The position numbers and the translations under genes were made by a program. From the NCBI RefSeq assembly GCF_009914755.1, contig NC_060932.1: a stretch of 64,000 bases of DNA; one strand, 5' to 3'. The DNA comes from the human T2T-CHM13v2.0 reference genome, Homo sapiens. The notes below the pieces were generated by a model. It was not told where the DNA came from. It did not search any database and was given only the letters and a program-made list of their open reading frames with translations. Shown here piece by piece: positions 2,825 through 52,677 of this stretch. The stretch's first letter is position 1; every line of letters begins with the position of its first letter.

Positions 2825-5245
<2,421 letters not shown>

Positions 5246-45477: not shown

Positions 45478-46038
45478 TTTTTGACCCACATTATTGCATC
45501 AGTGCCCTTCTAACCAGGACCCATGAACATTAACATTCTTATCGCTTCCCCTTTGTCTTCCCTTCTTCCCAAGCCCAGTGCCTTTTTCTAGTTGAGGATT
45601 GTGATGGAGTCCTTGACTCCTCCACCTGCTCTTCAACATTTTCTTGCTGTCTTTCAGTTGATGAAAAGGCCCTAGGCATTGAGGAGGGAACAGAACAAGA
45701 ACAGGGATAGATACAGGCCGTCTGCTTGAGACAGTGCCACATCTCTTCCCTGAGGCAATGAAAGCAAAGAGGGAGAAAGAGGAGAAATTGATGGAGGTGA
45801 CATTAAGTCATACTTTCAAGATATTAAGCTACTTTACTCAGTATCACCATTACTTTTTTAGTTTTTGTTTATTGTTTATTGTTTATGTACCTTTTAACTC
45901 ATTAGTTCTCACTGGTCAACATTTTGGGAATGAAGATTCCCAGAAGTTACTTCTGCTGCTATTATCTTTTGTCTGTTTCTATTCTTTTTTGAGTGTCAAG
46001 CAGGGGCCCCTAAAAACTTGACTGTATTATTTTGGATA

Positions 46039-46152
46039 CATGTCCTTTGGAGGGACATGGATGAAGCTGGAAAGCATCATTCTCAGCAAACTAACACAGG
46101 AACAGAAAACCAAACACCTCATGTTCTTACTCATAAGTGGGAGCTGAACAAT
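46039..46152 (+). mobile_element. Isolated 114-bp L1PA fragment, an inverted copy of 47613-47726
   Basis: 2 mismatches to the reverse complement of 47613-47726 by manual alignment. No tail or TSD. Confidence 0.9.
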
Positions 46153-47284
46153 ACCAGCAGCCCTCTCTTCGACTCCATTATCCTGGGTTAGACAGGATTC
46201 ACTGGATGTGAGGGAAGTCACAACTCCTGAAATTTCTACATGAAAAAATAAATCCCTGACCATTAGAATGATGAGCCTTTTGAGTAACTAAACATCTTTC
46301 ACAATATGGCTATTTCAGCTTGTCTTATTTATTTAAGCCACAATAAGAAATTCTCTTAAAAAATAAAAATAAAAATCTGAACTCTTAAGAGTTAGTGCAT
46401 CTTTGCCTGAATATTGAACAGCTATAGACTCACAGAAAGCTTTAAGAAACTATTTTAGGGAACATATTGACACAGCAATCCTTAATTGAATGTTACCAAC
46501 TGCTTCATATCATATATTTAGAAAGAACCTGTTTATGTTGTTTTGCTACTCCAATGAATAAAGTCAGAATGGTTTAATCATCTTTTAAACATCAAATAGT
46601 CTTTATTTTAACAAATGTCTTTATTGGCCCAGGATTTGAAACCCTAGTCACTAGAGCAAGACAACACAGCCATTTTTATGCCAGCAAAAGAAGCAGCTAT
46701 GAGGCCTCACGGATAACAGAAAGAATTATCACACACCCAACTTACTGCCTGGCACAATCTATGTGATACTGAAACAGATCATTGAAAATCAAAACATGTA
46801 ACCTCTCCAATAGTTATTTCAGCTGTACATTGACAAATAGTTGGGTTGATTGTATTTTATTTCTGGCTAATAGATTTCAGATTTTAATTACTGACTGAGA
46901 CAACTGGATTAAAAAAATAATTTATGCCAGAGATGACTTGGAAAGGAAGGCTGACAAAAGAAAAGAGGATCATTTTCCAACCAATCTGGAAAAAAATGAC
47001 TAAAAACTCCGTAAATAATTCTAACGAAGGGCCTGTGGCAATAAGCTGCTTAACTTAACTGGAAAGGAAGAAACACAAAGCCCATGAATGAGGAAAAGGC
47101 ATCAATACTTTTAGATACATGGGGTTGAAAAAAATGAGTCCCATTTCACAGTCTCTTCAGTAAAATCTTAAATGATGGCTACAAACATATTATAGTAACC
47201 TGAAGCTAATAAAACTACTATCATATCACATTACAAATATGAGAAAATTAGTGTACAACATTTCATGTAATCAACAATTACATT

Positions 47285-48523
47285 TTTTTTTCGTGGAATC
47301 TATTCTGCAGGCAGGAAGCAGAGACTCTGTGACTCTGGAGAGTTTTGAGCAGGGTGGCACGAGGCATGCAAACATTTTCTTGGCTGTTTTTTTATTTTTA
47401 TTATTATTTTTTAATTATACTTTAAGCTCTGGGGTACATGTGCAGAACGTGAAGGTTTGTTACATAGGTATACATGTGCCATGGTGGTTTGCTGCACCCA
47501 TCAACCCATCACCTATATTAGGTATTTATCCTAATGCTATCCCTCCCCTAGCTCTCCACCCCCTGACAGGCCCCAGTGTGTGATATTCCCCTCGCTATGT
47601 CCATGTGTTCTCATTGTTCGGCTCCCACTTATGAGTAAGAACATGAGGTGTTTGGTTTTCTGTTCCTGTGTTAGTTTGCTGAGAATGATGGTTTCCAGCT
47701 TCATCCATGTCCCTCCAAAGGACATGAACTCATCCTTTTTTATGGCTGCATAGTATTTCATGGTGTATATGTGCCACATTTTCTTTATCCAATCTATCAT
47801 TGATGGACATTTAGGTTGGTTCCAAGTCTTTGCTATTGTGAATAGTGCTGCAATAAACATATGCATGCATGTGTCTTTATAGTATAATGATTTATAATCC
47901 TTCAGGTATATACCCAGTAATGGGATTGCTGGGTCAAATGGTATTTCTGGTTCTAGATCCTTGAGGAATCAGCACACTGTCTTCCACAATGGCTGAACTA
48001 ATTTACACTCCCACCAACAATGGAAAAGCTTTCCTATTTCTTCTCATCCTCTCCATCGTCTATTGTTTCCTGACTTTTTAATGATCGCCATTCTAACTGG
48101 CGTGAGATGGCATCTCATTGTGATTTTGATTTGCATTTCTCTAATGACCAGTGATGATCAGCTTTTTTTCATATGTTTGTTGGTCACATAAATGTCTTCT
48201 TTTGAGAAGTGTCTTTTCATATCCTTTGCACAACTTTTGATGGGGTTGTTTTTTTCTTGTAAATTTGTTTAAGTTCCTTGTAGATTCTGTATATTAGCCC
48301 TTTGTCAGATGGACAGATTGCAAAAATTTTCTCCCATTCTGTAGGTTGCTTGTTCACTCTGATGATAGTTTCTTTTGCTGTGCAGAAGCTCTTTAGTTTA
48401 ATTAGATCCTATTTATCAATTTTGGCTTTTGTTGCCATTGCTTTTGGTGTTTTAGTCATGAGGTCTTTGCCCATGCCTATGTCCTGAATGGTATTGCCTA
48501 GGTTTTTCTTCTAGGGCTTTTAT
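47285..48523 (-). mobile_element. 5'-truncated L1PA (7/8-like) with a 3' transduction
   Basis: Reverse L1PA 3' UTR/ORF2 end at 47413-48523, first tail 47387-47412, unique 47292-47386, second T-run. TSD aacaattacatt at 47273-47284 and 48524-48535. Confidence 0.93.
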
Positions 48524-50179
48524 AACAATTACATTCATATTTATGTTGAGAGGCACACAAAAATACCAGCAGCCCTGTTAGATTTGGGGCACTTTTCTTC
48601 CTTTCTTCTGCCCTCAAAACATTATGCAATATGGCTAAGTTGCTCACAGAAATATGAAAATATGAATTAACTGAAAAGACATATTGGTTTTAAGAGGAGC
48701 ACTTAGGTAAATCTCACAGAGCTCTGAAACCAAGTTGGCACTCAAGACGTGATTGCCACTTCCTCCATTCCCTAAAACTTGCATAACAGGGTTCCGTGGC
48801 TTCAGGAAACCTCCAGAGACAACAGCAGACTTCTCAAACTGCTGCATCATTAACACCCGTTTGACAACTTTGTCTTAATTAGTGTTTCAGAATAGCTGGA
48901 CTCTATAATGTGATGAAGCTTTAGGAATACCTTTACCAATTTATTCTGTTTCCATTCTCTTTTCTTGTATTCACATGGAGTAACATGTGAAAAAATATTT
49001 CTGGGTTTAATCAAGGTTAAGATAACTCTTTTAACAGGGATAAAATGAATATTCCAAGTGAGCGGAATCATGATGCCATAGTTTCATTGGCAGCCATTTT
49101 TCTTTAGCGGTATGTAAATATCGGAAGAGTCTGCAATCAGTGGTGTCTTAGATTGAATGAAACACTGCATTGTGGTAATGAGGAAACACAGGCATGTTTA
49201 GCAAGCTTTTTAGGTACTTTGGGCATCTTCAATTATTTTGGAACTACTGTACCCTCCTATTTTATTTAACATTATATACATTATTTAGGGGAAAGTCATT
49301 AACTCCATTAACAGGTAGTTTGTTAATGGATAGAGGTCTCAAAAACATAAAGAACAGTGAAATAATATCAAGACTAAAGATGGTTAAAAATTATCTCAAG
49401 AAAAACAGAAATCAGAGAGTTTTTATGACTTCTAATCATTTGGGAGAAATAATCAGTCTTTAAGGACAACTGTGGATATAAGAGTACCCAGGCAGGCAAC
49501 TACAGGGACAAGGGCTATCATTTTCATTATGTCCAAAGGAACAAAACCAGGAGAACAGAACATCTGCATATTGCCCCTCTCTTTCTTTACCTAATAGTAG
49601 TGAGTTAATAAACCCTCTCTGACCAGTGGCTACTGCTTAGTGGACTATATAATACAATTAACATATTTGCATTTTAATAAGATGTGGATTGAGCTCACAC
49701 GTTCTTTTGAAGACCAAAGAACCCAGACTTCAGAAAGCCGATAAAGGCAGATGATCATGTGACTTTTTTCCTGGATTTTTAGGGCCAGTCTTTCCCTGGA
49801 ATGAAGAAAGAGGTTTCCCCAGAGAGAATGAACATTTCCACGGCCAAGAATCCTGGGAAGTGATAAATTCTAGGGCAGGAAATAAAGACTCTATGGAGAA
49901 GTATGAGCTTGGAAATTGGCCAGGAGCTAGCTGGGCTGGAACTCTGTGGTCTGGAGACAACTGGAACATTTGGAGGAGGTGGGCAGGACACTGAATTGCT
50001 ACTGCCCATGTGAAGGCAAAGTACCCTCTTGGCGTGAGTCCTGGCCTGCGCAATTTTTCTGTGTTGTATTTTCCTTATGTAATAGTTTCAAGAGCTCCTA
50101 ATATAAGGTTCCTTTTTGGTGACATTGTTTTCTTCCCTCTTTCTTTTATGACATTTATTACTACAAGGAAAGGGAAAGA

Positions 50180-50696
50180 AGCAGGTACTAGATTCTGTTT
50201 ACGCATCACTCCAGATTTACGCACTTGCTTTGCTTTCTGACCTGTGAAGCCCCCAATAGAACTCACCCTCTTCCATAGATCATGGAGCCAGTTGTCTCCT
50301 GCCTTCACTGTGGCTACAGACCTAGAGGCTCAATGCAGCCAAATCCCCCCACATTCCTGTTGTGCTGAGGTTTGGGGGGACACCAGGACTTACTTGGCAC
50401 TCATGTTATAGTGAAAGCTCCATAGATCCAATTTTGACCTATAGGTTATGGAAGTGAGTGGACAGATGCTGCTTCCTTCCTTGCCCCTAGACAGAATGCT
50501 GGATATACAGTTTCTTCATTTATTCTCCCTAAAGATATCCCCAAAGGCCAAAGAATTTGCTTGCCATTAAGCTCAATAATATACTTCCTTACATTTTCTC
50601 TCCCTCTCTCCTGTTTTCTTGGCGTTGCGTTTCCCCAATCCAATATTGGCACATTAGTTTGGCCTCAGGCTCTGCTTTGTAGGAGATCTTAACTGA
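50180..50696 (+). mobile_element. Degraded ERVL-class LTR
   Basis: 3' end ctccctctctcctgttttc...ggcctcaggctctgctttgtaggaga resembles LTR16/41-group termini. The 5' boundary is uncertain. Confidence 0.45.
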
Positions 50697-50928
50697 TGCA
50701 ATAAACATACGCGTGCATGTGTCTTTATAGTATAATGATTTATAATCCTTTGGGTATATACCCAGTAATGGGATTGCTGGGTCAAATGGTATTTCTGGTT
50801 CTAGATCCTTGAGGAATGGCCACACTGTCTTCCACAATGGTTGAACTAATTTGCACTCCCACCAACAGTGCAAAAGCTTTCCTATTTCTTCACATCCTCT
50901 CCATCATCTATTGTTTCCTGACTTTTTA
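50697..50928 (-). mobile_element. Isolated 232-bp L1PA fragment, paralogous to 47849-48080
   Basis: Ungapped manual alignment gives 13 mismatches. No tail or TSD. Confidence 0.9.
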
Positions 50929-51019
50929 TTCCCAAAAGTCCATCCTAGTAAGAAGGATAAGACAAAATACAAGATCTGGCCAGATAGAAGGAGGAGTGGT
51001 GAGAAATAAAATCATATGA

Positions 51020-51330: not shown

Positions 51331-52677
<1,347 letters not shown>

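What the first reader, a model, noticed from the sequence alone, without database searches (positions are those of the whole stretch)
46039..46164. Chimeric patch: inverted 114-bp copy of the neighbouring L1 fused to 15 bp of that L1's flank
Seen: 46039-46152 matches the reverse complement of 47613-47726 with 2 mismatches. Both share variants absent from the other L1PA in this window (4921-5035): tttgGaggga vs tttgCaggga, cacCTcatgttctTactc vs cacTGcatgttctCactc, gggagC vs gggagT. Through an aat overlap the patch continues as aataccagcagccct (46150-46164), identical to 48562-48576, about 40 bp beyond the L1's 5' junction. There is no poly(A) and no TSD. Inference: a break at 46.0 kb was filled by serial template switching onto two sites 1.5 and 2.4 kb away (MMBIR or Pol theta-type templated insertion). 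The flank piece implies the integrated locus was the template. The result is a ~98% identical inverted pair able to form dsRNA or a hairpin.
Basis: partly seen in the sequence, partly recalled or inferred. Interest (0 to 1): 0.8.

Follow-up and report, generated by a model that had tools for sequence, protein, structure and literature searches.

The report
Repair patch copied from neighbouring L1
A 126-base insert in otherwise unique human DNA was stitched together from two nearby templates, an old L1 repeat 1.5 kb away and the DNA just beyond that repeat, which is a clean but ordinary footprint of error-prone break or fork repair.

Summary
46039-46152 is the reverse complement of 47613-47726 (112/114), and 46150-46164 is identical to 48562-48576.

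It is well beyond chance:
- Only three places in the 3.1-Gb genome match the 114-mer within 3 mismatches: itself, the neighbour (2) and one chr18 copy (3).
- The patch carries 4 of the neighbour L1's 5 private positions in that stretch.
- The 15-mer occurs 6 times genome-wide, two of them here.
- Both flanks are single-copy.

The two pieces lie in opposite relative orientation and join through an AAT overlap. This fits DNA-level serial template switching and excludes one continuous cDNA. The polymerase and pathway (MMBIR/FoSTeS-like or Pol theta) and any deletion cannot be settled without an outgroup genome.

New here: 50697-50928 is a second local copy of the same L1. It is direct, 235 bp and 94% identical. 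It shares a 27-place haplotype found only twice in the genome, against 16,433 hits for the usual form.

Germline templated insertions are a known kind, so interest is modest. The dsRNA or hairpin consequence remains hypothetical.

The parts
46039..46152 (+). Patch piece 1: 114-nt copy of the neighbouring L1 (L1 sense on +), inverted relative to its template
   Evidence: 112/114 to the reverse complement of 47613-47726. Unique best genome hit. Shares 4 of 5 neighbour-private positions.
46150..46164 (+). Patch piece 2: 15 nt identical to the L1's flank. The first 3 nt (AAT) overlap piece 1 as microhomology, so 12 nt are unambiguous.
   Evidence: Exact match to 48562-48576. The 15-mer occurs 6 times in the genome. 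Junction view.
47613..47726 (-). Template 1, inside the neighbouring L1
48562..48576 (+). Template 2, unique DNA 39 nt beyond the last L1 base (27 nt beyond the probable TSD)
47385..48523 (-). Donor element: 5'-truncated L1 3' end (about 1.1 kb) with an A-rich tail, seen as a T-rich run at 47385-47414 on the + strand
   Evidence: Sequence read. Best genome-wide relatives are only 90-92% identical over 1109 nt. 38 private positions.
47273..47284 (.). Probable target-site duplication of the L1 (AACAATTACATT); the second copy is at 48524-48535
   Evidence: D9 (first 12 nt exact)
48524..48535 (.). Second copy of the probable target-site duplication
   Evidence: D9
50697..50928 (-). Second local copy of the same L1 (template 47849-48080). 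Direct orientation, internal fragment, no tail and no TSD.
   Evidence: 221/235 identical (D2, 32). Shares with the neighbour variants that 19-20 of 20 best genome hits lack. The 27-place haplotype occurs only at 48031 and 50879 in the genome, against 16,433 hits for the usual form.

Best explanation
The 126 bp at 46039-46164 are a templated insertion. A broken end or stalled nascent strand at about 46.04 kb, in unique DNA, was extended by copying 114 nt from the old, already mutated L1 1.5 kb away, on the opposite strand, so the copy is inverted. The strand then disengaged and re-annealed through AAT (5 of 6 over AACAAT/AAAAAT) to unique DNA 2.4 kb away, just beyond the L1's 5' end. It copied 12 more nt in direct orientation and was rejoined at 46165. 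The templates stayed intact, so this was copy, not cut.

Shown: the identity and uniqueness of both templates, the shared private mutations, the opposite orientation of the two pieces, and the microhomology at the internal junction.

Inferred: that a break or fork stall started it, the order of copying, and the pathway. A microhomology-mediated template-switch process of the MMBIR/FoSTeS or synthesis-dependent end-joining type is favoured. Pol theta is possible but not the typical scale.

The event is younger than the L1: each lineage has 1 private change in 114 nt, and 4 of 5 L1-private changes predate the copy. The same L1 also donated a 232-235 nt direct copy to 50.7 kb, either earlier or in the same complex event.
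For: -: only self, the neighbour (2 mismatches) and one chr18 copy (3 mismatches) match the 114-mer within 3 mismatches genome-wide.
- the neighbour ranks first of 40 scored (2431 candidates).
- against 20 outgroup L1 copies, 5 neighbour-private positions fall in the segment and the patch carries 4.
- shared G12 occurs 67 times against 4986 for the usual base. Shared T90 occurs 156 times against 4442.
- the one other copy seen with both variants is only 89% identical to the neighbour and 107/115 to the patch.
- the 15-mer occurs 6 times in 3.1 Gb, two of them here.
- both flanks are single-copy.
- there is no extended homology between patch flanks and template flanks, so this is not a decayed larger duplication.
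- the neighbour is only 86-92% identical to other L1 copies, so 98% is not family background.
- junction sequences.
- Passages read in PMC8421209 describe germline human templated insertions with inverted copies, microhomology and up to five templates.
Against: - No outgroup or second human assembly could be consulted. The empty site, any deletion and the outer-junction microhomologies are unknown, and 46153-46164 has not been shown to be absent ancestrally.
- The margin over the next best L1 copy is one mismatch (2 against 3).
- The left junction shows no microhomology.
- The tool warns that counts for large families are lower bounds, although pattern counts are stated to be whole.
- Template distances of 1.5 and 2.4 kb and the 114-nt length exceed what short-range surveys report. 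These are templates within 100 bp in PMC8421209 and a median of 12 nt with a maximum of 128 in PMC7954356.
Confidence: 0.85

Rival explanations
1. One complex multi-break event. The patch at 46.04 kb and the L1 copy at 50.7 kb would be the two junction fillers of a single rearrangement of the 4.5-kb segment 46165-50693, for example an inversion or a small chromoanasynthesis-like event, both templated from the L1 inside that segment.
For: - Both inserts derive from the same L1 and bracket it.
- Their divergences from the donor cannot be told apart statistically: 2/114 against 13/232, Fisher p=0.16; shared against unshared private sites, p=0.11.
- Copy-private changes are similar: 1/114 and 2-3/232.
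- Two short junction-spanning matches of the 50.7-kb copy map in inverted orientation to 45491-45503 (13 nt) and 45922-45931 (10 nt), just left of the patch. The empirical chance per k-mer is 0.011% and 0.34%.
Against: - Point estimates differ: 4 of 5 private sites shared for the patch against 3 of 11 for the 50.7-kb copy, and 1.8% against 5.6-6% divergence. This suggests two events at different times.
- The short junction matches were picked post hoc, and other 10-11-nt junction matches exist elsewhere in the window.
- There is no extended homology.
- An inversion cannot be seen without an outgroup.
Confidence: 0.17
2. RNA- or cDNA-mediated patch. Fragments of a read-through transcript of the L1 locus were reverse transcribed and captured at a double-strand break, as in endonuclease-independent L1 insertion or a class 2 templated-sequence insertion.
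For: - There is no TSD, no poly(A) and no endonuclease-type site, as in such insertions (abstract of PMC1920257; passages of PMC5110952).
- Both templates lie within 1 kb of each other and could sit on one transcript.
Against: - The two pieces are in opposite relative orientation compared with their source, so one continuous cDNA with an internal jump cannot give the patch. Two separately captured pieces or a strand switch would be needed.
- The donor is a 5'-truncated, heavily mutated L1 in a window without annotated genes.
- There is no evidence of transcription.
Confidence: 0.06
3. Independent old L1 fragment of the same subfamily that happens to resemble the neighbour, with the 15-mer match a coincidence. 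Gene conversion between two L1 copies is a variant of this reading.
For: - L1 copies are very numerous: 2431 candidates.
- A chr18 copy is only one mismatch worse.
Against: - 4 of 5 neighbour-private positions are shared.
- The best genome-wide hit lies 1.5 kb away, out of thousands of copies.
- The 15-mer has 6 genome occurrences and directly abuts the L1 piece.
- Gene conversion does not explain the non-contiguous flank piece, nor the sharp 114-nt borders in unique DNA.
Confidence: 0.02

Closest known systems
MMBIR/FoSTeS-type templated insertions (germline 'MMB-TI', Osia et al. 2021, PMC8421209; passages read)
   Same: - An inverted copy of a nearby template, which is retained.
- Microhomology at a switch point.
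- A multi-template ('complex') insert.
- Present as a germline or evolutionary variant without gross rearrangement.
   Different: - Templates lie 1.5 and 2.4 kb away, whereas that survey only looked within 100 bp.
- The second piece is direct, not inverted.
- The outer-junction microhomology is unknown.
Short-range template switches in great apes (Walker et al. 2021, PMC7954356; passages read)
   Same: A small templated insert created by a strand switch and return, which creates an inverted repeat.
   Different: - Those events are local (tens to hundreds of nt), with a median copied length of 12 nt and a maximum of 128.
- The authors state that small-scale non-local switching is left unresolved. 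This locus is an example of that unresolved class.
Pol theta-mediated end joining with templated inserts (recalled; review listings only)
   Same: Copy-and-retry synthesis primed at microhomology, which yields direct and inverted snippets of nearby DNA at a repaired break.
   Different: Typical inserts are a few to tens of nt, copied from close to the break (recalled). Here 114 nt were copied from 1.5 kb away. Enzyme dependence is not testable.
Endonuclease-independent (non-classical) L1 insertion (Sen et al. 2007, PMC1920257; abstract read)
   Same: An L1 fragment with no TSD, poly(A) or endonuclease site, interpreted as break repair.
   Different: Those derive from L1 RNA. Here the copy bears the private mutations of a dead neighbouring copy and is fused to non-L1 flank DNA in the opposite orientation.
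Class 2 templated-sequence insertion polymorphisms (Onozawa & Aplan 2016, PMC5110952; passages read)
   Same: A patch without TSD or poly(A), with microhomology, consistent with double-strand-break repair.
   Different: - TSIP donors are distant loci and are thought to be cDNA. Here the donors are local and the geometry argues for a DNA template.
- Polymorphism status is unknown.

Membership tests
Microhomology-mediated templated insertion (MMBIR/FoSTeS type) | The insert is a near-identical copy of a nearby sequence that is still present | tested here: met
   112/114 and 15/15; both templates are intact; the templates are specific genome-wide
Microhomology-mediated templated insertion (MMBIR/FoSTeS type) | Microhomology at the switch junctions | tested here: inconclusive
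   The internal switch has AAT (3 nt; 5 of 6 extended). The left junction has none. The right and outer junctions need the ancestral sequence.
Microhomology-mediated templated insertion (MMBIR/FoSTeS type) | Strand switch (inverted copy) and/or several templates in one insert | tested here: met
   Piece 1 is inverted and piece 2 is direct, from two sites
Microhomology-mediated templated insertion (MMBIR/FoSTeS type) | An ancestral allele without the insert | not testable with these tools
   No primate or second human assembly was available
Pol theta-mediated end joining insert | A short insert templated from the immediate break flanks (scale recalled, not from a call) | tested here: not met
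   114 nt from 1.5 kb and 12 nt from 2.4 kb away. No template was found in the adjacent flanks.
Classical L1 retrotransposition (TPRT) | 3' poly(A), target-site duplication, 3'-end-anchored copy | tested here: not met
   An internal 114-nt piece with no A run and no flanking direct repeat. The donor L1 itself does show a tail and a 12-nt TSD.
Endonuclease-independent L1 insertion | An L1 RNA-derived copy at a break, lacking TSD and poly(A) | tested here: not met
   It lacks TSD and poly(A). However, it carries 4 of 5 private mutations of the truncated neighbour, and it is fused to flank DNA in the opposite orientation.
Twin-priming L1 inversion | An inverted 5' segment adjacent to, and not overlapping, the 3' segment within one TSD pair | tested here: not met
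   The patch duplicates sequence present in the L1 and lies 1.1 kb outside its TSD, on the tail side

The most novel reading that the evidence does not exclude
The 46.04-kb patch and the newly found 50.7-kb L1 copy may be the two scars of one germline multi-break event. That event would be a small inversion or a chromoanasynthesis-like reshuffle of the 4.5-kb segment between them, with each junction filled by polymerase hops onto the same L1 and onto DNA next to the other breakpoint. It would be a fixed, kilobase-scale example of the non-local small-scale template switching that great-ape surveys say they cannot yet see.
Probability: 0.17. Interest if true: 0.45.

Novelty: new member of a known kind. 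Interest (0 to 1): 0.3.

Why it matters
This is a well-resolved natural example of serial template switching with donors 1.5-2.4 kb away. The donor's own private mutations prove the local origin.

Surveys of such events in apes are restricted to templates within about 100 nt. Loci like this one show that kilobase-range events exist, and that they can be found from a single genome by asking whether a tailless repeat fragment shares private mutations with the nearest copy of the same family.

The insert also created a 114-bp, 98% inverted repeat with a 1.46-kb spacer. One L1 served as donor twice. No function is indicated: the region has no annotated gene.

Tried and rejected
- **Extended homology, patch flanks against template flanks**: scores fell within the shuffles, so this is not a decayed larger duplication.
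- **Further templated snippets next to the patch**: only scattered 11-14-nt matches across the window, as expected by chance.
- **Extended homology, region left of the patch against flanks of the 50.7-kb copy**: none convincing.
- **13-nt and 10-nt junction matches to 45.49 and 45.92 kb**: they are suggestive but were picked post hoc, so they are not used as evidence for the main claim.
- **'Local' k-mer control:** it is dominated by the tandem repeat at 51.6-52.5 kb and was not used. The genome-wide count of the 15-mer was used instead.
- **Source of the 92 nt between the two T-runs at the L1 tail (47293-47384):** one 83-85% homologue at C8:28578899-28578983, with no L1 next to it. A 3' transduction is plausible but the source is unresolved.
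- **Gapped patterns joining two variant sites**: not accepted by the genome tool. Each variant was counted separately.
- **L1 subfamily:**
- **Other assemblies and RNA data:** no primate genomes, human pangenome or RNA-seq were available.

Full report
**Observation.**

The window is human (T2T chr8), and its genome could be searched.
- 46039-46152 is the reverse complement of 47613-47726 with 2 mismatches.
- AATACCAGCAGCCCT is identical at 46150-46164 and 48562-48576 and overlaps the L1 piece by AAT.
- There is no A/T run and no flanking direct repeat.

**Is it more than family resemblance?**

- A similarity search of the genome scored 40 of 2431 candidates. The neighbour ranked first at 98%, followed by copies at 97, 96 and 95%.
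- A pattern search of the whole 114-mer allowing 3 mismatches found three places only: self, the neighbour (2 mismatches) and C18:27142116 (3 mismatches).
- The margin is small, so I asked whether the shared bases are private to the neighbour. G at patch position 12 occurs in 67 genomic places, against 4986 for the usual C. T at position 90 occurs in 156, against 4442.
- The T90 list showed only the first 100 of its 156 places. The one other copy seen with both variants (C2:228.70 Mb) is 89% identical to the neighbour over 1.1 kb and 107/115 to the patch. That is a coincidence of the size expected.
- For an independent outgroup I took the 20 best genome hits to the whole 1109-nt L1, which are 91-92% identical. 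38 neighbour positions are carried by at most 1 of the 20. Five of these lie in the copied segment, and the patch has 4 of them.
- The neighbour is 86-91% identical to 17 other related copies aligned over at least 600 nt. So 98% is not background.

**The flank piece.**

- The 15-mer occurs 6 times in 3.1 Gb, two of them here, and the control pattern gave 0.
- It abuts the L1 piece exactly.
- The patch flanks (45730-46038 and 46153-46460) each have one genomic candidate, themselves.
- There is no extended similarity between the patch flanks and the template flanks.
- The whole 126 bp is therefore accounted for by two local templates, with no untemplated bases.

**Anatomy of the donor.**

- The donor is a 5'-truncated L1 3' end on the minus strand. 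Its body is 47415-48523 and its A-rich tail is 47385-47414.
- AACAATTACATT occurs at 47273-47284 and 48524-48535 (D9) and is the likely target-site duplication.
- Between the left copy and the L1 tail lie a T-run and 92 nt of other sequence. The only homologue of that sequence is 83-85% identical at C8:28.58 Mb and has no L1 beside it. This looks like a 3' transduction of unresolved source.
- Template 2 thus lies in pre-existing flank DNA, 27 nt beyond the duplication.

**Mechanism.**

- Relative to their sources, piece 1 is inverted and piece 2 is direct. A single cDNA copied from one transcript with an internal jump would keep both in the same orientation, so it is excluded by geometry. This is an inference.
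- The templates are intact, so the pieces were copied, not moved.
- The internal junction has AAT (5 of 6 over AACAAT/AAAAAT), and the left junction has no microhomology.
- The best reading is that a broken end or stalled strand was extended on the L1, released, re-primed at microhomology on the flank, released again and joined.
- This matches germline templated insertions attributed to MMBIR. Those include multi-template events but were surveyed only for templates within 100 bp (PMC8421209, passages).
[quoted passage not shown] In that survey the median copied length was 12 nt and the maximum 128 (PMC7954356, passages).
- Pol theta is possible, but 114 nt from 1.5 kb is outside its usual scale (recalled).
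- Endonuclease-independent L1 insertion (PMC1920257, abstract) and class 2 templated-sequence insertions (PMC5110952, passages) share the lack of TSD and poly(A). They are cDNA-based and do not fit the orientation or the private mutations.

**Timing.**

- In the 114 nt, the patch and the neighbour each have one private change. The neighbour's is a C that forms a CpG.
- Four of the neighbour's five private changes predate the copy.
- The patch is therefore clearly younger than the L1, perhaps a fifth of its age, with wide error. Absolute dates need outgroups.

**A second copy.**

- 50694-50928 matches 47846-48080 in direct orientation, 221/235. L1 homology starts at about 50697.
- By overall identity the neighbour is only one of many 94% hits, and the best is 96%.
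- Column by column, however, this fragment and the neighbour share bases that 19-20 of the 20 best genome hits lack.
- A 27-place pattern holding two of those bases occurs only twice in the genome, at these two places. The usual form occurs 16,433 times.
- With the independent outgroup, 3 of the 11 neighbour-private positions are shared, 8 are not, and the copy has 2 clear private changes.
- It has no tail and no TSD.
- It looks older than the patch, but the difference is not significant (Fisher p=0.11 and 0.16). One complex event remains possible.
- Short junction-spanning matches of this copy to 45491-45503 and 45922-45931 hint at a link to the patch site, but they are post hoc and weak.

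**Consequences.**

The two arms would pair at about -218 kcal/mol as RNA. No gene is annotated in the window and no expression data were available, so dsRNA formation is hypothetical.

**Verdict.**

The observation and its core interpretation are correct. The kind of event is known. The locus is a clean instance, with the added curiosity of one L1 donating twice.

Noticed in passing
window 50694-50928 (template 47846-48080): A second tailless copy of the same L1: direct orientation, 94% identical. It shares a haplotype found only at these two places in the genome, against 16,433 hits for the usual form.
   Followed up: yes
window 47285-47384; L034 1479-1585: Between the L1's probable TSD and its A-rich tail lie a second T-run and 92 nt. 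Their only homologue (83-85%) is at C8:28578899-28578983 and has no L1 beside it. This is a possible 3' transduction whose source is lost or unresolved.
   Followed up: partly
window 50692-50704 vs 45491-45503; 50928-50937 vs 45922-45931: Both junctions of the 50.7-kb L1 copy carry short inverted matches (13 nt and 10 nt) to DNA just left of the 46.04-kb patch. These could be further template hops linking the two sites, or chance.
   Followed up: partly
window 47849-48080: In this segment the donor L1 has 8 private changes not shared with its 50.7-kb copy, while the copy has 2-3. The changes include two adjacent double changes (47903-47904 and around 47971-47972). The asymmetry is not significant (binomial p=0.11) but is unexplained.
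   Followed up: partly
window 51624-51904: A long tandem array with an 8-nt period (GGAA/GAAA-rich), which dominates local k-mer repeat statistics.
   Followed up: no
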